A stretch of DNA of 57,816 nucleotides from an uncultured Nitrososphaeria archaeon (GTDB lineage: Archaea > Thermoproteota > Nitrososphaeria_A > Caldarchaeales > Wolframiiraptoraceae): NCBI GenBank assembly GCA_964440495.1, contig CAYTSD010000004.1, forward strand, positions 1 through 57,816. The letters run 5' to 3'. Below the pieces are notes generated by a model. The model was given only the letters and a program-made list of their open reading frames with translations, was not told the origin of the DNA and did no database searches. Position 1 is the first letter of the stretch. Each line of letters begins with the position of its first letter. Below, piece after piece: positions 16,906-24,576 of this stretch. The position numbers and the translations under genes were made by a program.

Positions 16906-17739
16906 ATGTGCGTCCTTAGCATGACTGTAATTAGGAAAGTTAGCTTGAGAGAGATCGTCGCTAAGCCTGCTGAAGCTCTTGACGTAGACTTTCTCCCGAA
17001 CAAGAGATTGAAGGGGATCCTGATAAGAGATATTGAGAACATTCCCGAGAACCTAAGGAAAATCACTAGAGCTATAATCGAAGAAGGGGCTAATCTCATA
17101 ATTATGAGACCCTCATCGCCTAGTGCAAGAATAGTGGATCTGCTCTACTATGTGGAGTGCCCGGAAGATACCGAGGAGGCTATAGCATCAAGAATTAGGG
17201 AGCTCAACATAGCTGAAGAGGTTTTAATCTTCGACACGCCTGACGAGAGGCTAGCCTTAAACGCCTTCTTCCCAACCCTAGTTCTAGGAAGGAGGGCGAT
17301 AATCCTTAGAGAACCCGTTTACAGCGGACTCTTCAACGGGCTTCGGGAAATTGTGACAGAAGGTGGCGCAAAAACATTCCTATACATGATTGGACTCCGA
17401 ACCGGGGAAGAGGTAGCTCACTCCCTAATGCCGATAGTGAAGAGTAAAACAATATTAGAATCTCTAGAGACATTAGGTCTAATTGGAAAGGCTTTAGGCT
17501 ACGGCGATCTAGAAAAGATTCAAGCGGTCAAAGATACTATAATTTACAGCGTTCAAGATAATTGGGAGGCCGCGGTTCTGAGAAGAAGGTATCAGACCCC
17601 ACAGTGCTACTGGACAAAAGGTTTACTGGAAGGATTCTTAGGCGAGTTAACAGGCTATAAATGGAAGGCAGAGGAAGAAGAATGTGTCGCTATGGGAAAT
17701 AAGAGATGTAGATTCACTTTAAGAAAAGAAAGCGAATAA
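16906..17739 (+). CDS. V4R (4-vinyl reductase-like) domain protein
   Basis: C-terminal CYWTKGLLEGFLGELTG...EEECVAMGNKRCRF is the V4R signature. The alternative start ATG 16921 fits the TATA at 16882-16890 better. Confidence 0.5.
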   Translation: MCVLSMTVIRKVSLREIVAKPAEALDVDFLPNKRLKGILIRDIENIPENLRKITRAIIEEGANLIIMRPSSPSARIVDLLYYVECPEDTEEAIASRIRELNIAEEVLIFDTPDERLALNAFFPTLVLGRRAIILREPVYSGLFNGLREIVTEGGAKTFLYMIGLRTGEEVAHSLMPIVKSKTILESLETLGLIGKALGYGDLEKIQAVKDTIIYSVQDNWEAAVLRRRYQTPQCYWTKGLLEGFLGELTGYKWKAEEEECVAMGNKRCRFTLRKESE

Positions 17740-17840: not shown

Positions 17841-18473
17841 TTATTCCCCACTCGGTGAGAATTTTTTCTTTATCTTCTTAAATACGCTTCCTATAGTGGT
17901 TGATGGTTCGCTGCTCTCTATCTCAGCCTCCTCCACTTCGCCTCCTCCCCGAATGTATCGCAGGTCAACCGTCTCCATCCCCTGTATTGTGCTCTCGATA
18001 ACTTTTCTTCTATGTATTCCTATTGTAATTCTTAGCGATGAGATTTCTCCTTTTCTATTGATTCTGAAGGCCTTAACCCTAAGGTCTCTAAGCTTCCTGG
18101 TTCTCGCATAAGTTACTGGGTCTACCACCATCGCTATTGCTTTGGGAAACATCATCTGGTATCTCTTCTGGGTTTCAATATCTATTGACGATAGGAAGAC
18201 GTCAAATCCTGGATGAGTGTGATACCATCCAACTATGTAAAGGCCGGGTCTCTCACGCATCAGCCATTCAGCGGTTGCGGCCATAGTTTCTTCTTGTAGA
18301 TAGACAAATGCTGAGGTAGATTTTTGGTCTCCAGTTATCGCGTCCCACACTTCGAGAACATCCTGCTTCTTGAGGTATTTCCCAACCAGTAAGCCCGCAA
18401 CCTCCCGGTCTAAATTTATCAAAGCATGTTTGATTACTTTTCCGAGAGCCAGCGGATAAATCCTAACCCTCAT
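17841..18473 (-). CDS. JAMM/MPN+ metalloprotease, Rpn11-like (putative pro-ubiquitin processing / deubiquitinase)
   Basis: Complete JAMM motif: EVAGLL upstream Glu plus HTHPGFDVFLSSID (HxHx7Sx2D). Divergently transcribed from the Ub-E2-E1-RING operon. Confidence 0.85.
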   Translation of the reverse strand: MRVRIYPLALGKVIKHALINLDREVAGLLVGKYLKKQDVLEVWDAITGDQKSTSAFVYLQEETMAATAEWLMRERPGLYIVGWYHTHPGFDVFLSSIDIETQKRYQMMFPKAIAMVVDPVTYARTRKLRDLRVKAFRINRKGEISSLRITIGIHRRKVIESTIQGMETVDLRYIRGGGEVEEAEIESSEPSTTIGSVFKKIKKKFSPSGE

Positions 18474-18655: not shown

Positions 18656-18916
18656 ATGAAGATTAGGGTAGTTCCAGCTGTAGGTGGTGGAAGCCCTATC
18701 GAGTTAGAGGTTTCTCCCTCGACCACTATAGGTGCGATTAGAGCCAAGGTCTGCGCCATGAAGAGGCTGCCTCCAGACACCACACGCCTAACCTATAGAG
18801 GTAGGGCGCTTAAAGACACTGAGACCCTCCAATCCCTAGGAGTACAGGATGGGGACAAGCTAGTCTTAATCACCAGAACCGTTGGGGGTTCTAGCTATGC
18901 AGGCGGAACTCCCTGA
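18656..18916 (+). CDS. ubiquitin-like protein (eukaryote-type Ub fold) with C-terminal extension after Gly-Gly
   Basis: MKIRV...TRLTYRGRALKDTETLQSLGVQDGDKLVLITRTVGG-SSYAGGTP. This is the ubiquitin-like hydrophobic pattern and an LxLxxRxxGG-type end, followed by 8 extra residues. Confidence 0.85.
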   Translation: MKIRVVPAVGGGSPIELEVSPSTTIGAIRAKVCAMKRLPPDTTRLTYRGRALKDTETLQSLGVQDGDKLVLITRTVGGSSYAGGTP

Positions 18917-19376
18917 ACTCCTCTGGCACAAGAGGCTGGCAATAGAGTATAAGCTAGTCCATGAGCATGAACCCTTATTCGACGTTGTAGCAGGAGATCT
19001 AACCCATTATAAAGGCGTACTTGTCGGTACAGGGATCTACGAGGGTGGATACTTCAAGGTGGAGATACTTCTTCCTCGGAGCTTTCCCTACGTGCCGCCT
19101 GACGTGGTCTGGTGGACGAGGATATGGCATCCCAACTTCACCGACGAGGTTCCAGCACGTATCTGCGAGTCCATATTTAAGGATGATTGGTCTCCAGCCC
19201 TCCACGTGATAACGGTCATCGAGGCTCTCAGAAACCTCCTTAACAACCCGAATCCAGACGACCCCCTAAACACTATAGCGGCCATGGAGATGAAGTTTAG
19301 ACCAGATATATTTGAGGCGAGGGTTAGACAGTATATAGAGCTCTTCGCAAGACCCGACCAAGCCCTCACAAAGTAG
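18897..19376 (+). CDS. ubiquitin-conjugating enzyme E2 (UBC fold)
   Basis: HPNF motif followed by the catalytic Cys context PARICESIFKDDWSPAL. I prefer ATG 18897 over the TTG 18882 in the track. Overlaps the tail of the Ub gene. Confidence 0.8.
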   Translation: MQAELPELLWHKRLAIEYKLVHEHEPLFDVVAGDLTHYKGVLVGTGIYEGGYFKVEILLPRSFPYVPPDVVWWTRIWHPNFTDEVPARICESIFKDDWSPALHVITVIEALRNLLNNPNPDDPLNTIAAMEMKFRPDIFEARVRQYIELFARPDQALTK

Positions 19377-19418: not shown

Positions 19419-20621
19419 ATGAGTGAGGGTGAAGGCTCCCCAATCCCTCGGGAGGATCGCTATGACCGACAGATGAGAATCGAGGGCTGGAGGCAGGATA
19501 AGCTCCTCAACTCAACAGTGATGATAGTTGGGGTTGGGGCAACTGGATGCGAAGTTGCGAAGAACCTGGCCTTAATGGGTGTTGGGAGATTGATACTAGT
19601 TGATAACGATGTTGTGGAAGTCTCGAATCTAAGTAGGCAGATGCTGTTTCTAGACAGGGATTTAGGTAGGCCGAAGGTCGAGGCAGCCGTTGAGAAGCTT
19701 AGAGAGATGAATCCATGGGTAAGGGTTGAAGCATTCTACAGCGATGTTAGAGAGCTTGACCTAACACTCTTCAAGGAATCAGATGTTTTATGCTCATGTC
19801 TAGATAACTGGCCTGTTAGAAGATGGCTTAACTCCGTTGCCGTTGAACTCGATAAACCGCTTATCGACGCGGCCATGGAAGGGTTCTACGCCAACCTCCA
19901 AATAGTCATACCTGGAAAGACCGCCTGCCTCGAATGCCATGGAGAAGACCTAATCCCGAAGGAGGTTCAACTTGCTGAATGCACGCTCAGAAGAAGAAAG
20001 CCTGAAGACTTGGCCTCAGACCTCAAGCAACAGGGGATAGAGATCGAGACCGAAGTAGTTGAGAAGCTATTCGAGCTTGGAATAAAGACTATCTTCGACC
20101 TAAAGTATTCGCAGGCAGATATGTTGGAGAAGCTTGACAATAGCCTCCGAGAGAGGGTTAAGGAGATTCAGGAGATTCTCAAGCCCAAGATGCCTGCGCT
20201 TCAGAGTATAGCCGCAACGATAGCTGGGATAGCCTCAACCGAGGTGATAAAACTCCTCCACGGCGGAAGTGTTGGGAAACCCATGAAAGGCCTCCTAGTA
20301 TACGATGGGGCTGCAGGAAGATTCACGAAGGTGAGGCTTGACAGAAGGGAGGACTGCTTCGTCTGCGGCGACCATGTCAGGGAGAAGGGTGTAGTATTCA
20401 CGGCGAAGCCCGGGGAAACCGTTGCGGAGCTTAAGAAGAGGATTGCTGAGAGCTTCGGCTTCCCAGACCCCGAACTCCTCTACAAGAAGTGGAAGCTCAG
20501 CGACGAGCAAACCCTAAGGCAGGTAGGCGTGAAAACAGGTGAGACTATATACGTTGAGACCAGTAGAAGGTTTACCCCCCTCCCACTACAGATAGAACTC
20601 GTGGAAGAAACAATTAATTAG
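19419..20621 (+). CDS. ubiquitin-activating enzyme E1-like (ThiF/MoeB/UBA adenylation domain plus C-terminal ubiquitin-fold domain)
   Basis: RYDRQMRIEGW...VGVGATGCEVAKNLALMGVG...VDNDVVEVSNLSRQ. Paired CxxC motifs (CLEC, CFVC). The C-terminus VFTAKPGETVAELKKRIAESFG...GETIYVE is beta-grasp-like. Confidence 0.85.
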   Translation: MSEGEGSPIPREDRYDRQMRIEGWRQDKLLNSTVMIVGVGATGCEVAKNLALMGVGRLILVDNDVVEVSNLSRQMLFLDRDLGRPKVEAAVEKLREMNPWVRVEAFYSDVRELDLTLFKESDVLCSCLDNWPVRRWLNSVAVELDKPLIDAAMEGFYANLQIVIPGKTACLECHGEDLIPKEVQLAECTLRRRKPEDLASDLKQQGIEIETEVVEKLFELGIKTIFDLKYSQADMLEKLDNSLRERVKEIQEILKPKMPALQSIAATIAGIASTEVIKLLHGGSVGKPMKGLLVYDGAAGRFTKVRLDRREDCFVCGDHVREKGVVFTAKPGETVAELKKRIAESFGFPDPELLYKKWKLSDEQTLRQVGVKTGETIYVETSRRFTPLPLQIELVEETIN

Positions 20622-20659: not shown

Positions 20660-20923
20660 TTGCCTAAGAGAATAGTTCTCGGCAAGCCGGTCAGCGTGGG
20701 GTTCTGGGATCCCTGGTCGGTTGAGGAGCCTGTTAGAAAGCCGAGGCCGAGGGAGGAGCCCCGTGAAGAGAACTTCTGCGTAATCTGCCTCTCCAAGATA
20801 GAGGAGGGGGCTCCGACGATCCAGTGCCCGCACTGTGGAGCAATCGGGCATAGAAGCTGCTTTGAGGACTGGGTTAGGCTTAAGGGGACCTGCCCTCTCT
20901 GTAAGAGACCTATAACGCTTTAG
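20660..20923 (+). CDS. small RING-type zinc finger protein (putative E3)
   Basis: CVIC-x12-CPHCGAIGHRSC-x3-W-x7-CPLC gives eight Cys/His ligands in cross-brace-compatible spacing. TTG start preceded by GGAG. Confidence 0.8.
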   Translation: MPKRIVLGKPVSVGFWDPWSVEEPVRKPRPREEPREENFCVICLSKIEEGAPTIQCPHCGAIGHRSCFEDWVRLKGTCPLCKRPITL

Positions 20924-20974: not shown

Positions 20975-21373
20975 GTGAAGCGTCTGGAGGAGAGAAGAGA
21001 GGAGGAGAAGGAAGAGGAGGAAGAAGAAGGAGTCGTTGAGATAGAGTTAAGCTATCTAGATACCCCTGGGGGTAAGAAGGTTGCAACCCTAGAGTCGGCT
21101 AAGAGTTTAGCCGACGCCATAGTGGTTTTAGATGACGCTGTATCAGAGTTGGAGGAGAAGGTGGGAAGGTTGGAGAGAGGTGAAGGGCTCGTGAAGGTGG
21201 TTGAAGAGTTCTCAGCAAGGATTACAGCAATCGAGAAGACGTTAAGTGACTTGGAGAGGAATCTTCAGACAGAGTTGGGAGACCTATCTGACAAGCTCTC
21301 AGCGCTGATAGACGCCTTCCACGAGCTGGCTGAAAGGGTTCAGAGAATAGAGGATGAGATTTCTAGGGGCTGA
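20975..21373 (+). CDS. acidic coiled-coil protein, unknown function
   Basis: Poly-Glu N-terminus, then heptad-like Leu/Glu repeats. GTG start. No family recognised. Confidence 0.4.
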   Translation: MKRLEERREEEKEEEEEEGVVEIELSYLDTPGGKKVATLESAKSLADAIVVLDDAVSELEEKVGRLERGEGLVKVVEEFSARITAIEKTLSDLERNLQTELGDLSDKLSALIDAFHELAERVQRIEDEISRG

Positions 21374-22199
21374 GGAAAGCCCTCCTCATATCGGCCAGAG
21401 TCTTCTCAAGGCTCGCACGCTTCTCCTCAAGCTCCTCTATCTCGGACTCCAGCCTCCTCTTCCTCTCACTTAGAGAGGTTAACTCGCCCTTAAGCTGAGT
21501 TAGCTTACGTTCAAGCTTCGCAGCCTCCTCTTCCTTCTCCCTCATCCTCGCAAGCGAGTCCTTCAGCTCTGCTTCACGTCTCACCAGTCTTTCCAGCCGT
21601 ATCTCCCTCAGCTTGAAGTCCCTGAGCATCTCCTTCATCATGTCTGAGAGCCTGTTCCGAGCCTCTTCAAGCCCTGCCAGATAGCGTTGCTGAAGCTCAG
21701 CTATCCTGTTCTCCAGCTCGGTCTTCCTCTCCTCAAGCTCTCTGACCTCAGCCTCTCTAAGGGTAAGCTTCCTCTCCTTGGCGTCAAGCTCCTCCTTCCA
21801 CTTCCTTATCTCCTCCTTCATAACCGCTAGCTCGGTCTTCTCCTTTAGAACCCGGTTAATCTCCTGTCTAAGGGATTCACGCTCCTTGCTCAGCGACTCA
21901 ACGATGTCCTTTATCCCCTCCTGAACCGAGAGAAGCATGTTCTCATAGTAGCGTACTATCGTCAACTCTTCAGCGACTTTCTCAGCCTTCCCAATGAAGG
22001 AGTTTAGCTTTGACTCCCAGCGCTGAGGTTGAGAGGCGACCGTGGATAAGAGTTCTAGAGCCCTGTCAAGCTCGTTGTTTATCTTAGAGAGCCTGTTATC
22101 CAAGCCCTCTGTCAGATTCTTCTCTATCTCGGTTAGTCTCCCGCTAAGCCTCTCCTCAAGCTCTAGAAGCTTATCTTTCTTGCTTGTGAAGGGACTCAT
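21363..22199 (-). CDS. long coiled-coil protein, unknown function
   Basis: 278 aa, almost entirely heptad-rich E/K/R/L sequence. TATA-like TTTTTATAG on the minus strand about 25-32 nt upstream of ATG 22199. Confidence 0.45.
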   Translation of the reverse strand: MSPFTSKKDKLLELEERLSGRLTEIEKNLTEGLDNRLSKINNELDRALELLSTVASQPQRWESKLNSFIGKAEKVAEELTIVRYYENMLLSVQEGIKDIVESLSKERESLRQEINRVLKEKTELAVMKEEIRKWKEELDAKERKLTLREAEVRELEERKTELENRIAELQQRYLAGLEEARNRLSDMMKEMLRDFKLREIRLERLVRREAELKDSLARMREKEEEAAKLERKLTQLKGELTSLSERKRRLESEIEELEEKRASLEKTLADMRRAFLSP

Positions 22200-22335
22200 C
22201 TCTGCCTAGGCTAATTGATACGGCTATAAAAAGGTGTTTCGGCATATCTCGAAAATCAACTCTTATAAAAGAGCCTGGGCTAAAGGGTTTAGAAGAGGTG
22301 CGGATGCAGGAGTGATAGTTGGTCAAGAAGAGGTT

Positions 22336-23043
22336 ATGGCCAGACTTTATAAGATAGGCGCAGGAGCAGCAGCGGTAGGCGCAATCCATATCCTAACACT
22401 GCTTCTAAGCTGGTATATCGAGAGCAATGGGAAAGTCGTTGCAGCCTTGGTTGGATATGTTTTCCCGGAGTCGCTTATATTCTCGGTGGCAGGCGGACTG
22501 ATGGCTGGAATAGGCCTCCTCATAGCATATGTGGTTAAACGGGTAATCGTCACCAAACTCGTGATAGGTGCTCTAGCAGTTATTGGAGGTGTTCTCGCAC
22601 TCTTCTCCCCCCTCTACATATACTTCTACCACATTCTTGAGCTAGGGATACGCGGGTACCCCGATATAGGTTTCTTCGCAGCAATCTTCACAGGAATAGT
22701 CCAGATAGGTGTGGGCGCTCTCGCTCTCCTCACGCCGACGAAGAGGGAGATAATACCCACAGCAGCTCCAGAGATTACGCCTACACCAGCCTTCGAGCCA
22801 GCGCCTACACCCCCTCCACCGACAACGCCTAGAACGCGGAGACCAAGGGGGCCTGCCACCGCAAGAATCGTACCCGCAACCGACATAGAAGAGGCCACCT
22901 GCAGCATATGTTATGAGCCTGTTAAGCCTGAGGATGCTGTGAAGTGTAGCGCCTGTGGGGCTATCTTCCATAGAGGATGCATCGATACATGGGTAAGCCT
23001 GAATGGGACATGCCCTGTCTGTAAGGCCGTGATAGTGGGCTAA
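22336..23043 (+). CDS. polytopic membrane protein with C-terminal RING-type zinc finger (paralog of the small RING protein)
   Basis: Several hydrophobic segments, then a Pro/Thr-rich linker (TPTPAFEPAPTPPPPTTP), then CSIC-x11-CSACGAIFHRGC-x3-W-x7-CPVC. Start set at ATG 22336 (GAGGT upstream). The track gives GTG 22234. Confidence 0.7.
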   Translation: MARLYKIGAGAAAVGAIHILTLLLSWYIESNGKVVAALVGYVFPESLIFSVAGGLMAGIGLLIAYVVKRVIVTKLVIGALAVIGGVLALFSPLYIYFYHILELGIRGYPDIGFFAAIFTGIVQIGVGALALLTPTKREIIPTAAPEITPTPAFEPAPTPPPPTTPRTRRPRGPATARIVPATDIEEATCSICYEPVKPEDAVKCSACGAIFHRGCIDTWVSLNGTCPVCKAVIVG

Positions 23044-23094
23044 GCCTATATAAGGGCGTCCAGCCCAACCTTCTCCCAGCGGGTGTAATAGAGG

Positions 23095-24576
23095 ATGAGT
23101 AGGCTTGCTAAGGCGGAGTCCAAGTATGACGCCTTGATGAGGCTGGCTCTTGAACGTGGATTCTTCATGCCTGCCTCCGAGATCTATGGAGACGCTCCAG
23201 CAGGGTTCTGGGACTATGGCCCACTCGGGGCAGCCCTCAAGCGGAGATTCATAGAGCTCTGGCGCAGAGAGCTTGTTAGAAGAGATAAGATGCTCGAGAT
23301 CGACGGAGCACAGGTCTTGTCAAAAAACGTCTTCAAGGCCTCGGGGCACTTGGAGAGCTTCGTAGACCCTATAGCGAGATGCGGTAGATGTAAGGCGATC
23401 TATAGGCTTGATAAGCTGATCGAGGAGAAGACCGGGATTCACGTGCCTGAGCGTGCAAGCTTGGAGGAGATGGAGAAGATTGTTAGGGAGAGGGGGATAA
23501 GGTGTAATAGATGTGGTGGAGAGTTAACCGACTTCTCCCACTTTAACATGATGTTCAGGCTAAGCATAGGCGTAGCTGGTGGAGAGGCCTATCTTAGGCC
23601 AGAGACATGTCAAAGCATATTCATAGACTTCCTCCGCCTCTATAGAATAATGCGTAGAAAACTCCCCCTAGGGATAGCGCAGGTCGGTAAGAGCTTCAGA
23701 AACGAGATATCCCCTAGACAGGGGCTTCTACGTATGCGTGAATTCTATCAAGCAGAGATAGAGGTCTTCTTCAACCCGAATAAAGCAAACGACCTCCCGA
23801 AGGCAAAGCCCTTCTTAGACTACGGGCTTCGACTACAGCCTCTCGGCAGAGATGAGCCCATGGAGATAACTTGTAGGGAGGCTCTGGACAAGAAACTCGT
23901 CTCAAGCGAGCTCGTAGCCTACTATCTCGCCCTGATACAGCAGTTCTATGAGAAGGCTGGCATCTCTAGGGAAAAGATTCGGCTGAGGCAGCTTGGAGAG
24001 GATGAAAAAGCGTTCTACGCCGTCGAGGCATGGGATTTGGAGGTTGAGACAAGCCTAGGATGGATAGAGCTTGTAGCATGTAACAATAGGGGAGACCATG
24101 ACCTTGGAGGCCATCAAGCCATGAGCGGCAAGGAGATGACTGTTCTCGACGACGGTGAAAAAGTTCTACCACATGTATTCGAGCTATCGATGGGTGTTGA
24201 CAGAAGCCTTTACTGCATCCTAGAGAACGCCCTAACAGAGAGCAGGGGAAAATCCGTTCTCAAGATCTCCCCAACCCTAGCTCCGATTCAGGCAGCCGTC
24301 CTACCGCTCCTCTCGAAGGAGCCCTTCACCTCGAAGGCGATGGAAGTCTACGAAACCCTGAGAACAGAATTCGACGTAGACTACGATGAGTCAGGAAGCA
24401 TTGGGAGAAGATATGCACGCCAAGACGAAATAGGAACCCCCTACTGCATAACAATTGATCATAGAACACTTGAAGATGAAACAGTTACTCTGAGAAACAG
24501 GGATACAGCGGCACAGTTCAGAGTAGAGATATCCAAGCTTCCTGAAACACTTAGAAAGCTTCTGAACCCCGTGTAG
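23095..24576 (+). CDS. glyS: glycine--tRNA ligase (archaeal/eukaryotic type)
   Basis: RGFFMPASEIYGDAPAGFWDYGPLGAALK, class II motifs (FRNEISPR, GVDR), and a C-terminal anticodon-binding domain. TATA CTATATAA at 23046-23053. Confidence 0.9.
   Translation: MSRLAKAESKYDALMRLALERGFFMPASEIYGDAPAGFWDYGPLGAALKRRFIELWRRELVRRDKMLEIDGAQVLSKNVFKASGHLESFVDPIARCGRCKAIYRLDKLIEEKTGIHVPERASLEEMEKIVRERGIRCNRCGGELTDFSHFNMMFRLSIGVAGGEAYLRPETCQSIFIDFLRLYRIMRRKLPLGIAQVGKSFRNEISPRQGLLRMREFYQAEIEVFFNPNKANDLPKAKPFLDYGLRLQPLGRDEPMEITCREALDKKLVSSELVAYYLALIQQFYEKAGISREKIRLRQLGEDEKAFYAVEAWDLEVETSLGWIELVACNNRGDHDLGGHQAMSGKEMTVLDDGEKVLPHVFELSMGVDRSLYCILENALTESRGKSVLKISPTLAPIQAAVLPLLSKEPFTSKAMEVYETLRTEFDVDYDESGSIGRRYARQDEIGTPYCITIDHRTLEDETVTLRNRDTAAQFRVEISKLPETLRKLLNPV

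What the first reader, a model, noticed from the sequence alone, without database searches (positions are those of the whole stretch)
20975..23043. Second, membrane-anchored RING paralog next to the ubiquitin operon, separated by two coiled-coil genes
About 1.4 kb downstream of the small RING gene, a polytopic membrane protein ends in a RING domain. That domain is clearly paralogous to the small RING: CSIC-x11-CSACGAIFHRGCIDTWVSLNGTCPVCK versus CVIC-x12-CPHCGAIGHRSCFEDWVRLKGTCPLCK. It is tethered by a Pro/Thr-rich linker. This architecture recalls eukaryotic membrane-embedded RING E3 ligases. It would give the archaeal cascade two E3s, one soluble and one membrane-bound. The two intervening coiled-coil proteins (20975-21373 and 21363-22199) have no recognisable domains and could be scaffolds, substrates or unrelated. 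I am not aware of a membrane RING having been characterised as part of the archaeal system.
Basis: partly seen in the sequence, partly recalled or inferred. Interest (0 to 1): 0.7.

Follow-up and report, generated by a model that had tools for sequence, protein, structure and literature searches.

The report
Membrane-anchored RING ligase beside archaeal ubiquitin operon
Next to a eukaryote-like ubiquitin operon in a hot-spring archaeon (Aigarchaeota/Caldarchaeales) lies a conserved four-helix membrane protein whose RING finger is predicted to face the cytoplasm, so it is probably a membrane-bound ubiquitin ligase, although a "second E3" here was already mentioned in the literature and its activity is untested.

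Summary
The membrane RING gene most likely starts at GTG 22312, giving 243 aa, not at 22234. The second coiled-coil gene (21363-22199) is on the minus strand. The RING gene appears to have its own promoter.

The protein has four TM helices, a disordered Pro/Thr linker and a C-terminal RING. The charge pattern puts the RING in the cytoplasm. The RING shares an unusual C-x2-C-x4-H zinc-ligand variant with the operon's small RING (srfp). It keeps the counterparts of the srfp residues whose mutation impaired ubiquitylation: Ile/Leu/Met in 102/102 family sequences, Trp in 100/102, Lys/Arg linchpin in 76/102.

The family is small and was found only in Aigarchaeota-type contigs. Twenty-three unique loci carry the whole block JAB-Ub-E2-E1-srfp-CC1-CC2-TMRING, several with different flanking genes. 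Six loci keep only E1 onward and three keep only srfp onward. Calditenuis-like genomes have the membrane RING beside GlyRS with none of the partners nearby.

Fuchs et al. 2018 already mention "a second E3 protein" next to the C. subterraneum operon. In the papers I could read, I found no description of the membrane anchoring or of the conserved srfp-CC1-CC2-TMRING module. Ligase activity is inferred, not shown.

Verdict: a new member of a known kind, of moderate interest.

The parts
22312..23043 (+). Membrane-anchored RING protein (TM-RING), 243 aa. The longest ORF starts at 22234, but the likely start is GTG 22312.
   Evidence: Homologues of 230-284 aa begin at this position, and a TATA-like box lies inside the longer ORF.
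22324..22731 (+). Four-helix membrane domain. Helices are residues 5-29, 52-75, 78-111 and 119-140 of the 243-aa protein, with a beta-hairpin (33-47) in the first outside loop. His26 in TM1 and S99-P100-x3-Y104 in TM3 are invariant in the 31- and 33-sequence family alignments.
   Evidence: AlphaFold2 model, mean pLDDT 83. Hydropathy and charge bias. Invariant columns. No Pfam family covers this domain.
22741..22899 (+). Pro/Thr/Arg-rich linker between TM4 and the first RING cysteine. Residues 149-179 are predicted disordered; the stretch after them is modelled with confidence.
   Evidence: pLDDT <50 for residues 149-179. Length and sequence vary between homologues.
22900..23022 (+). RING domain core, C197-C237, with ligand pattern C-x2-C-x11-C-x2-C-x4-H-x2-C-x10-C-x2-C. 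E2-contact positions are I199 and W227; the linchpin position is K238 (nt 23023-23025, just past the core).
   Evidence: Pfam zf-RING_2 E=9.1e-12. PDB sequence matches to Arkadia, RNF24, RLIM, RNF38, gp78 and Hrd1 RINGs. Residue statistics over 102 family sequences.
22200..22311 (.). Divergent intergenic region between CC2 and TM-RING with two TATA-like boxes. CTATAAAAAG at 22224-22233 reads TTTTTATAG on the minus strand and would serve CC2. TTATAAAAG at 22264-22272 would serve TM-RING.
   Evidence: Read directly from the sequence. Assignment as promoters is inference. A further TATA-like box at 23047-23056 precedes GlyRS.
21363..22199 (-). CC2, 278 aa, predicted as a single continuous alpha-helix (coiled-coil protein). 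It diverges from TM-RING and converges on CC1.
   Evidence: AlphaFold2 helix 5-275, mean pLDDT 89. Conserved at 31-64% identity in every locus that carries srfp. Only coiled-coil noise in Pfam, NCBIfam and PDB.
20975..21373 (+). CC1, 132 aa. It has an acidic N-terminus, a conserved Y-L-D/E-T-P-x-G-K/R motif and then a coiled coil. It probably belongs to the Ub operon transcript.
   Evidence: Alignment A7, invariant T30, P31, G33. The srfp-to-CC1 gap is 5 nt or less, or overlapping, in 13 of 34 unique loci. The 11-nt 3' overlap with CC2 occurs in 25 of 34.
20660..20923 (+). Small soluble RING protein (srfp-type E3), the paralogue of the TM-RING's RING domain.
   Evidence: Pfam zf-RING_2 3.5e-11 and Prok-RING_1 29.6 bits against a 29.1 cut-off. 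The orthologous protein in C. subterraneum is biochemically an E3 (PMC5654768).
18656..20621 (+). Ubiquitin (18656-18916), E2 (18882-19376) and E1 with a C-terminal Ub-like domain (19419-20621). This is the cascade the RINGs would use.
   Evidence: Pfam ubiquitin 5.3e-15, UQ_con 4.1e-27, ThiF 3.9e-61.
17841..18473 (-). Rpn11-like JAB/MPN deubiquitinase, divergent from the Ub operon.
   Evidence: Pfam JAB 1.2e-19.
23095..24576 (+). Glycine-tRNA ligase. It is the most persistent downstream neighbour of TM-RING and probably has its own promoter.
   Evidence: NCBIfam TIGR00389 E=9.3e-160. Adjacent in nearly all loci, including Calditenuis-like ones.

Best explanation
The gene encodes a membrane-embedded RING-type ubiquitin ligase. 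A tetraspan domain with both termini inside sits in the cytoplasmic membrane. A flexible linker holds a RING domain in the cytoplasm; about 30 of its residues are predicted disordered.

The RING would bind the E2~ubiquitin thioester made by the neighbouring E1/E2 and promote ubiquitin transfer to lysines of membrane or membrane-proximal proteins. The small soluble paralogue srfp would do the same for soluble targets.

The TM domain is strongly conserved, with an invariant His in TM1 and an S-P-x3-Y motif in TM3. It is therefore likely to be the substrate- or partner-recognition part rather than a passive anchor.

CC1, which looks like the fifth gene of the Ub operon, and CC2, a roughly 270-residue single helix, most likely form a coiled-coil partner of the two RING proteins. 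They could act as scaffold, adaptor or dedicated substrate.

**Shown here:** domain architecture, predicted topology, conservation of the counterparts of experimentally important srfp residues, and gene linkage.

**Inferred:** E2 binding, ligase activity, the targets and the role of CC1/CC2.
For: 1. The RING passes Pfam zf-RING_2 at 45.5 bits against a 27.3 cut-off. Its nearest solved relatives are bona fide RING-H2 E3s: Arkadia 6.6e-9, RNF24, RLIM, RNF165, RNF38, EL5, gp78/AMFR, Hrd1/synoviolin, RNF13 and ZNRF3.
2. In C. subterraneum srfp, mutating I30, W58 or R69 impaired ubiquitylation (PMC5654768). The matching positions in 102 unique TM-RING sequences are I/L/M in 102/102, W in 100/102 and K/R in 76/102. 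The window protein has I199, W227 and K238.
3. All eight Zn ligands are invariant.
4. The RING shares srfp's unusual C-x2-C-x4-H ligand arrangement. Only about 3 of the 137 best other RINGs have it without also keeping the canonical C-x-H His. The srfp HMM scores TM-RINGs at a median of 46.7 bits, above 136 of 137 others.
5. Topology: loop 1-2 is acidic (K/R 0-1, D/E 1-4) and loop 2-3 is basic (K/R 2-4, D/E 0) in the family members whose hydropathy scan gives four segments. This puts both termini inside. AlphaFold2 gives four helices, pLDDT 83. The weak best fold matches are claudin/TARP tetraspans, which have the same N-in/C-in topology.
6. Linkage: 23 unique loci carry JAB-Ub-E2-E1-srfp-CC1-CC2(-)-TMRING. 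Several have different flanks: L034-L041 and L045 lack the ribosomal genes upstream, L108 has L11/L1/L10 upstream, and L112 has thiolase genes upstream and NADH dehydrogenase genes downstream.
7. The block srfp-CC1-CC2-TMRING survives where Ub/E2/E1 are not adjacent (L024, L027, L049).
8. The srfp-to-CC1 gap is 5 nt or less in 13 of 34 loci.
Against: - No activity or interaction data exist for this protein.
- The linchpin Lys/Arg is replaced by Gly/Asn/Gln in 26 of 102 family members.
- The canonical fourth ligand (His) is absent and must be replaced by an upstream Cys.
- In the three Calditenuis-like loci examined (27-30% identity), the TM-RING sits between an AsnC-type regulator and GlyRS. 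No srfp, CC1, CC2, Ub, E1 or E2 lies within 8 kb. Whether those genomes have a Ub system at all could not be checked.
- Among the closer relatives much of the neighbourhood is collinear (ribosomal genes upstream, GlyRS-PhoU_div-EndA downstream), so part of the synteny is inherited gene order.
- The gene appears to be a separate transcription unit, judging from TATA-like boxes read by eye.
- Topology rests on the positive-inside rule and AlphaFold2, not on a dedicated predictor or an experiment.
Confidence: 0.62

Rival explanations
1. The TM-RING is a non-catalytic or co-catalytic membrane receptor. Its RING heterodimerises with srfp, as in BRCA1-BARD1 or Mdm2-MdmX type RING pairs, and recruits the soluble ligase, perhaps through the CC1/CC2 coiled coil, to the membrane. 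The two RINGs would then form one E3 complex rather than two independent E3s.
For: srfp and TM-RING are co-conserved with CC1/CC2 as a four-gene block even where Ub/E1/E2 are not adjacent. In the L024/L027/L049 lineage the features are split between the two proteins. There srfp has lost the Ile and Trp (CDAC......KSLIG) but keeps K/R after the last Cys, while the TM-RING keeps Ile and Trp but has Gly at the linchpin.
Against: In most lineages, including the window, both RINGs carry the full set of E2-contact and linchpin residues. That fits two independently active ligases. C. subterraneum srfp works alone in vitro (PMC5654768). Calditenuis-like loci have the TM-RING without an adjacent srfp. 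No dimerisation element was identified.
Confidence: 0.15
2. The RING-like domain has a ubiquitin-independent role, for example as a zinc-stabilised peptide or protein binding module of a membrane sensor. Its position near the Ub operon would be inherited gene order.
For: Calditenuis-like genomes keep TM-RING plus GlyRS with no Ub-system gene within 8 kb. GlyRS, not the Ub operon, is the most persistent neighbour. The gene appears to have its own promoter. The TM domain is conserved well beyond what an anchor needs. From memory, Burroughs et al. 2011 argue that not all prokaryotic RINGs act in Ub pathways; that paper could not be read here.
Against: The E2-contact Ile and Trp are kept in nearly all 102 sequences, including the Calditenuis-like ones. 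The block stays together in lineages whose flanks on both sides differ (L108, L112, L034-L045). The nearest paralogue is an experimentally validated E3.
Confidence: 0.13
3. CC1 and CC2 are unrelated to the RING proteins. They would be structural or cytoskeletal coiled-coil proteins that happen to lie between the two RING genes.
For: They have no recognisable domain, only compositional similarity to SMC/Rad50 arms and other coiled coils. CC2 is on the opposite strand.
Against: In every locus examined that still has srfp, CC2 lies between the two RING genes; CC1 was detected in all but one (L049, where it fell below the tblastn threshold and was not checked by eye). Both are absent when srfp is absent. 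CC1 abuts or overlaps the srfp stop in many loci, and the 11-nt CC1/CC2 overlap is conserved in 25 of 34.
Confidence: 0.1

Closest known systems
srfp, the small RING finger E3 of the Candidatus Caldiarchaeum subterraneum ubiquitin operon (Nunoura 2011; Hennell James 2017)
   Same: Same RING subtype: C-x2-C-x11/12-C-x2-C-x4-H-x2-C-x10-C-x2-C, with a Cys pair in place of the canonical C-x-H. Same E2-contact Ile and Trp and a basic linchpin. Encoded in the same locus as Ub, E2, E1 and the Rpn11-like DUB.
   Different: srfp is a 75-95 aa soluble protein and the fourth gene of the operon. This protein is 243 aa with a tetraspan membrane domain and a flexible linker, and it appears to be a separate transcription unit. 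Its Prok-RING_1 score (22.3 bits) is below the cut-off that srfp passes. Its activity is untested.
'Second E3 protein' adjacent to the C. subterraneum operon (Fuchs et al. 2018, PMC6043591)
   Same: A second RING gene next to the Ub operon of an aigarchaeote. It is most likely the orthologue of this gene.
   Different: That paper mentions it in one sentence as a 'small E3 RING finger protein'. It gives no membrane domain, topology, conservation or link to the coiled-coil genes. I could not retrieve the C. subterraneum sequence to confirm orthology.
Eukaryotic polytopic membrane RING-H2 ligases (Hrd1/synoviolin, gp78/AMFR) and single-pass ones (RNF24, RNF13, ZNRF3, plant ATL/EL5)
   Same: The architecture is an N-terminal membrane domain, a cytosolic linker and a C-terminal RING-H2-like domain facing the cytoplasm. 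The RING sequence matches these proteins' RINGs at E = 8e-8 to 2.8e-5 for the isolated RING chains.
   Different: The membrane domains are not detectably homologous. The best fold matches are weak hits to claudin/TARP tetraspans (E 3e-3, TM-score 0.45-0.58), and none of the 50 matches listed was Hrd1 or gp78. The fourth zinc ligand differs. No ERAD partners (Hrd3, Der1) were identified here.
Pfam Prok-RING_1 (PF14446), prokaryotic RING fingers linked to Ubl/E1/E2/JAB genes (Burroughs, Iyer and Aravind 2011)
   Same: Prokaryotic RINGs found in the neighbourhood of E1/E2/Ubl/JAB genes. From memory, the Pfam entry says the bacterial versions carry TM helices. Fourteen of 16 diverse family members give sub-threshold or borderline Prok-RING_1 hits, best 3.7e-7.
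   Different: The window protein scores 22.3 bits against a 29.1 cut-off. The tetraspan domain has no Pfam model. The 2011 paper was not available, so I cannot say whether it describes this architecture.

Membership tests
RING-type E3 ubiquitin ligase (RING-H2-like) | Eight zinc ligands with cross-brace spacing | tested here: met
   C197, C200, C212, C215, H220, C223, C234 and C237 are invariant in 33 and in 16 diverse sequences. Pfam zf-RING_2 scores 45.5 bits against 27.3. One variation: the canonical ligand-4 His is Ala, and a Cys three residues upstream (C-x2-C) is the likely substitute. The geometry itself was not inspected.
RING-type E3 ubiquitin ligase (RING-H2-like) | E2-binding hydrophobic residues: Ile after the first Cys and Trp after the sixth ligand | tested here: met
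   I/L/M in 102/102 and W in 100/102 unique family sequences. The equivalent srfp mutations I30Q and W58A abolished or impaired ubiquitylation (PMC5654768).
RING-type E3 ubiquitin ligase (RING-H2-like) | Basic linchpin residue after the last Cys, which locks E2~Ub in the closed state | tested here: met
   K238 in the window protein, and K/R in 76/102 family members. Gly/Asn/Gln occupies the position in 26/102, mostly the divergent subgroups.
RING-type E3 ubiquitin ligase (RING-H2-like) | Stimulates ubiquitin transfer from a cognate E2~Ub | not testable with these tools
   This needs biochemistry. No complex-prediction tool was available.
Archaeal srfp / Pfam Prok-RING_1 | Scores above the Prok-RING_1 gathering threshold | tested here: not met
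   22.3 bits against a 29.1 cut-off for TM-RING. The srfp in the same window scores 29.6.
Archaeal srfp / Pfam Prok-RING_1 | Small soluble protein encoded inside the Ub-E2-E1 operon | tested here: not met
   The protein is 243 aa with four TM helices. It is separated from the operon by a minus-strand gene and has its own TATA-like box.
Archaeal srfp / Pfam Prok-RING_1 | Shared C-x2-C-x4-H ligand variant and reciprocal sequence closeness | tested here: met
   The srfp HMM ranks TM-RINGs above 136 of 137 other top RINGs. The variant is rare among the others.
Hrd1/gp78-type polytopic membrane RING ligases | N-terminal multi-pass membrane domain with a cytosolic C-terminal RING-H2 | tested here: met
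   Four TM helices, both termini predicted inside, RING C-terminal. This is a match of architecture only.
Hrd1/gp78-type polytopic membrane RING ligases | Homologous membrane domain | tested here: not met
   None of the 50 listed Foldseek PDB matches of the full model was Hrd1 or gp78. No Pfam family covers the TM region. The profile search of 1.84 billion proteins found the TM domain in only about 14 clusters, all with the same architecture.
Claudin/PMP22/TARP tetraspan fold | Four-helix bundle with an extracellular beta-sheet from loop 1, and N-in/C-in topology | tested here: inconclusive
   Best PDB fold hits are claudin-3/-4/-19 and TARP gamma, with E 3e-3 to 3e-2 and TM-score (target) 0.45-0.58. 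None reaches E<=0.001. The model has a beta-hairpin in loop 1.
Claudin/PMP22/TARP tetraspan fold | Claudin loop-1 signature with the conserved Cys pair | tested here: not met
   Loop 1 (residues ~30-51) is about 20 residues long and contains no cysteine. This is read directly from the sequence.

The most novel reading that the evidence does not exclude
The four genes srfp-CC1-CC2-TMRING encode one ancestral membrane-associated ubiquitin-ligase machine. It would comprise a soluble RING and a tetraspan RING joined by a long coiled coil, and it would ubiquitylate membrane proteins in a prokaryote without endomembranes. On this reading, membrane-protein ubiquitylation, the logic behind ERAD and ubiquitin-dependent sorting, arose in archaea before eukaryotes, with a membrane domain unrelated to Hrd1 or gp78.
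Probability: 0.2. Interest if true: 0.8.

Novelty: new member of a known kind. Interest (0 to 1): 0.5.

Why it matters
Aigarchaeotal and Asgard ubiquitin operons are the best models for how eukaryotic ubiquitylation began. So far only the soluble srfp E3 has been studied, and only with an artificial substrate (Rad50).

A conserved membrane-embedded RING paralogue gives the system a second, spatially restricted E3. That makes a concrete question testable: did ubiquitylation of membrane proteins, the basis of ERAD and endocytic sorting, exist in archaea?

The co-conserved coiled-coil genes are candidate natural partners or substrates, which the field currently lacks. The constructs are small and the cognate E1, E2, Ub and DUB have already been produced recombinantly for C. 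subterraneum.

Tried and rejected
- **Function of CC1 and CC2.** Pfam, NCBIfam and PDB profile searches returned only coiled-coil noise (SMC/Rad50 arms, viral fusion proteins, keratins), all far below cut-offs. No Snf7/ESCRT-III, PspA, CdvA or Vps23 hit appeared at E<0.1. The AlphaFold2 model of CC2 is one long helix, so I did not run a fold search on it.
- **CC2 homologue search.** The word-index search returned only 8 hits because of the low-complexity composition.
- **Earlier literature.** Burroughs et al. 2011 (PMC5938088) and Burroughs 2012 (PMC5881585) are not held. Searches for CSUB_C1478-1480 found nothing beyond Nunoura 2011.
- **Metagenome scan.** The scan with the most diverse alignment failed for lack of a conserved stretch. 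It worked with a subgroup alignment.
- **RNA features.** Rfam and tRNA scans of the whole window found nothing.
- **Start codon.** I rejected the 22234 start: the frame contains the TATA-like box and no homologue has the extension.
- **Operon membership.** I rejected the idea that the RING gene belongs to the Ub operon, because a minus-strand gene lies between them.
- **Window identity.** I rejected the idea that the window is C. subterraneum itself. Its srfp spacing is x12, not the published x11, and the numbering offsets disagree with I30/W58/R69.
- **Calditenuis Ub system.** I could not determine whether Calditenuis-like genomes encode Ub/E1/E2 elsewhere.
Full report
**Observation**

The window carries a eukaryote-like ubiquitin locus of the Aigarchaeota/Caldarchaeales type:
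- a JAB/Rpn11-like gene, 17841-18473 (-)
- ubiquitin, 18656-18916
- E2, 18882-19376
- E1 with a C-terminal Ub-like domain, 19419-20621
- a small RING protein (srfp-type), 20660-20923
- two coiled-coil ORFs, CC1 at 20975-21373 (+) and CC2 at 21363-22199 (-)
- the ORF of interest, 22234-23043 (+)
- glycine-tRNA ligase, 23095-24576 (TIGR00389, E=9e-160)

The last 43 residues of the ORF of interest match Pfam zf-RING_2 at E=9.1e-12. The two RINGs align at 46% identity, E=9e-12.

1. CC2 is on the minus strand. Its 3' end overlaps CC1's by 11 nt, and it diverges from the RING gene.
2. All homologues begin at the position of Val27 of the long ORF. The residues just after it (E-E-V-x-x-R) are conserved. 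A TATA-like box, TTATAAAAG (22264-22272), lies inside the long ORF about 40 nt upstream of GTG 22312. The protein is therefore most likely 243 aa, encoded at 22312-23043.
3. A second TATA-like box on the other strand (22224-22233) would serve CC2, and another (23047-23056) precedes GlyRS. The membrane RING gene thus looks like its own transcription unit. These promoter assignments are my reading of the sequence, not a test.

**Anatomy**

Hydropathy finds four TM segments in 15 of the 16 aligned family members; the crude scan splits the window's own protein into five. AlphaFold2, run with a 31-sequence alignment, gives mean pLDDT 83. It shows helices at 5-29, 52-75, 78-111 and 119-140, a beta-hairpin at 33-47, a disordered stretch at 149-179 and a confident RING at about 181-243.

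In the members that give four segments, the loop between TM1 and TM2 is acidic (K/R 0-1, D/E 1-4), and the loop between TM2 and TM3 is basic (K/R 2-4, D/E 0). By the positive-inside rule both termini, and hence the RING, are cytoplasmic.

A Foldseek search of the PDB gave only weak matches, with the best E at 3e-3. They were uniformly claudin and TARP-gamma tetraspans, which share the N-in/C-in topology and the extracellular sheet. I treat this as a resemblance. The claudin loop-1 cysteine signature is absent.

No Pfam family covers the TM domain. It is nonetheless strongly constrained. His26 in TM1 and S99-P100-x3-Y104 in TM3 are invariant across the 31- and 33-sequence family alignments; in the more divergent 16-sequence set only the Ser stays strictly invariant. 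That suggests more than an anchor.

**The RING**

The eight zinc ligands (C197, C200, C212, C215, H220, C223, C234, C237) are invariant. The canonical fourth ligand (the His of C-x-H) is Ala here, and a Cys three residues upstream (C-x2-C) is the likely substitute. Hennell James et al. noted the same peculiarity for srfp.

Among the 137 best non-family RING hits drawn from 1.84 billion proteins, 128 have the canonical C-x-H. Only about three share the variant without the His.

An HMM of srfp RINGs scores the TM-RINGs at a median of 46.7 bits, above 136 of those 137. The exception, P0103, is itself a membrane protein with srfp-type RINGs. The two families are cleanly separate: each scores 74 bits or more on its own HMM and 52 or less on the other's. 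The duplication therefore predates all sampled lineages.

Against PDB sequences, the RING is closest to genuine RING-H2 E3s: Arkadia, RNF24, RLIM, RNF165, RNF38, EL5, gp78, Hrd1, RNF13 and ZNRF3.

In C. subterraneum srfp, mutating I30, W58 or R69 impaired ubiquitylation (PMC5654768). The matching positions in 102 unique family sequences are:
- I/L/M in 102/102
- W in 100/102
- K/R in 76/102, and Gly/Asn/Gln in the rest

**Distribution and linkage**

A profile search of 1.84 billion representative proteins found the full-length architecture in only about 14 clusters at 50% identity. Everything else matched the RING alone.

Source names, where given, are Wolframiiraptor, Geocrenenecus, Benthortus, Calditenuis, 'Aigarchaeota', 'Thaumarchaeota' and Caldarchaeales. 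Some are annotated 'RING finger protein'. No hit carried an Asgard label, though many carry no label at all.

I mapped the window's proteins onto 113 fetched loci by tblastn and checked called genes with Pfam. Among 49 unique TM-RING proteins in the first 65 loci, the arrangements were:

| Arrangement | Loci | Notes |
|---|---|---|
| Full block JAB(-)-Ub-E2-E1-srfp-CC1-CC2(-)-TMRING | 23 | Others are truncated by contig ends but consistent |
| E1-srfp-CC1-CC2-TMRING | 6 (L015, L032, L043, L047, L062, L064) | Geocrenenecus-like; in L062, HypD, acylphosphatase and a Vps4-like gene sit upstream where Ub/E2/JAB would be; the other five show only the absence of tblastn hits |
| srfp-CC1-CC2-TMRING | 3 (L024, L027, L049) | Ribosomal L15e and unrelated genes upstream in L024/L027; CC1 was not detected by tblastn in L049 |

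- **Collinear relatives.** Among close relatives the whole neighbourhood is collinear, with RrnaAD-DUF655-Rpb4-L21e upstream and GlyRS-PhoU_div-EndA downstream. That weakens synteny as evidence.
- **Block kept with changed flanks.** The block persists where the flanks differ. L034-L041 and L045 (36-40% identity) lack the upstream ribosomal genes. L108 has L11/L1/L10 upstream and no JAB. L112 has thiolase genes upstream and NADH dehydrogenase genes downstream.
- **Calditenuis-like loci.** Three such loci (L109-L111, 27-30% identity), fetched afterwards, have only an AsnC-type regulator, the TM-RING and GlyRS. Nothing from the Ub system lies within 8 kb.
- **One different neighbour.** One close relative (L031) has a TauE-like gene upstream instead of CC2.
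- **Gene spacing.** CC1 abuts or overlaps the srfp stop in 13 of 34 unique loci. The 11-nt CC1/CC2 overlap is present in 25 of 34.

I draw four conclusions from this. Linkage to the Ub operon is real and more than inherited order. The tightest unit is srfp-CC1-CC2-TMRING. CC1 is probably the fifth gene of the operon. The linkage is not obligatory.

**The coiled-coil genes**

CC1 has a conserved Y-L-D/E-T-P-x-G-K/R motif followed by a coiled coil. CC2 is predicted as one continuous helix from residue 5 to 275, pLDDT 89, with an invariant Trp and an R-E-I-R-L-E-R-L segment.

No family or structure match rises above coiled-coil noise. Their role as scaffold, adaptor or substrate is inference from co-conservation.

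Two published parallels may be relevant. The only in vitro substrate sites reported for the C. subterraneum cascade were lysines in Rad50's coiled coil. In Asgard archaea a neighbouring coiled-coil UEV-Vps23 protein is the RING E3's substrate (bioRxiv 10.1101/2023.07.25.550441). These are analogies, not evidence.

**Mechanism**

The best-supported reading is a membrane-embedded RING E3. Its cytoplasmic RING, on a flexible tether, would engage the operon's E2~Ub and modify membrane or membrane-proximal proteins. The conserved tetraspan domain would provide recognition. I put this at about 0.62.

Rival readings:
- A RING-RING heterocomplex with srfp, about 0.15. The complementary loss of features in the L024 lineage is suggestive.
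- A Ub-independent role, about 0.13. This is supported by the Calditenuis-like loci.
- CC1 and CC2 unrelated to the RING proteins, about 0.1.

**Comparison with what is known, and novelty**

Nunoura 2011 and Hennell James 2017 describe only srfp. Fuchs et al. [quoted passage not shown] The existence of a second RING gene there is therefore already in the literature.

In the papers I could read, I found no description of its membrane domain, topology, family-wide conservation or the four-gene module. I could not read Burroughs et al. 2011.

From memory, the Pfam Prok-RING_1 entry says bacterial members carry TM helices, so membrane-tethered prokaryotic RINGs are not unheard of. Eukaryotic membrane RING-H2 ligases (Hrd1, gp78, RNF24, ATLs) share the architecture but not, detectably, the membrane domain.

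I classify the finding as a new member of a known kind. Interest is moderate (0.5), because it makes archaeal membrane-protein ubiquitylation directly testable.

Noticed in passing
window 16906-17739 (+): A V4R-domain ORF (Pfam V4R 5.8e-14; weak MsvR-like NCBIfam hit) sits between ribosomal L21e and the JAB gene in this window. In the 20 or more syntenic relatives L21e is followed directly by JAB, so this looks like a lineage-specific insertion next to the Ub locus.
   Followed up: partly
window 18656-18916 and 18882-19376: The ubiquitin ORF ends ...RTVGG-SSYAGGTP, an 8-residue tail after the first Gly-Gly that contains a second Gly-Gly. The longest E2 ORF overlaps this tail. Relatives encode 78-aa ubiquitins with shorter tails.
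   Followed up: no
window 23095-24576; L109-L111: GlyRS is the most persistent neighbour of the membrane RING gene. The pair stays adjacent even in Calditenuis-like genomes that lack srfp, CC1, CC2 and the Ub genes nearby. This may simply be old gene order, but it is unexplained.
   Followed up: partly
window 21363-21373; 34 related loci: CC1 and CC2 converge with an 11-nt overlap of their 3' ends in 25 of 34 unique loci. This is an unusually conserved convergent overlap.
   Followed up: partly
L112 8001-8686: In this metagenome contig the TM part (188 aa) and the RING (59 aa) are called as two overlapping genes. That indicates a frameshift in the linker, either a sequencing error or a genuinely split gene.
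   Followed up: no
P0037 (protein): This 307-aa protein has first ~93 residues 61% identical to the TM-RING N-terminus and a HisKA/HATPase_c histidine-kinase C-terminus. It comes from a single contig and is either a chimeric assembly or a domain swap.
   Followed up: partly
L062 9282-10000 (also L032, L043, L047, L064): Geocrenenecus-like loci carry 0.7-2.1 kb spacers between CC2 and the RING gene. In L062 the spacer is AT-rich with no ORF of 75 aa or more; the others were not inspected. Other lineages have about 110-220 nt here. The nature of these spacers is unknown.
   Followed up: no
L062 3161-4282 (-): A Vps4/CdvC-like AAA ATPase with a MIT domain lies about 2 kb upstream of E1 in the lineage whose Ub and E2 genes have moved away. 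This is probably coincidental, but worth noting given the ubiquitin-ESCRT links in Asgard archaea.
   Followed up: no
P0103 (protein): A 288-aa protein of unknown origin has an N-terminal TM region, two srfp-type RINGs (CPHCGALSH... and CPYCGVLSH...) and zinc ribbons. It is the top non-family hit of the srfp HMM and may be another kind of membrane-tethered prokaryotic RING.
   Followed up: no
L024, L027, L049 (srfp and TM-RING genes): In this divergent lineage srfp has lost the E2-contact Ile and Trp but keeps a basic linchpin. The TM-RING keeps Ile and Trp but has Gly at the linchpin. This complementary pattern is compatible with a RING heterodimer.
   Followed up: partly
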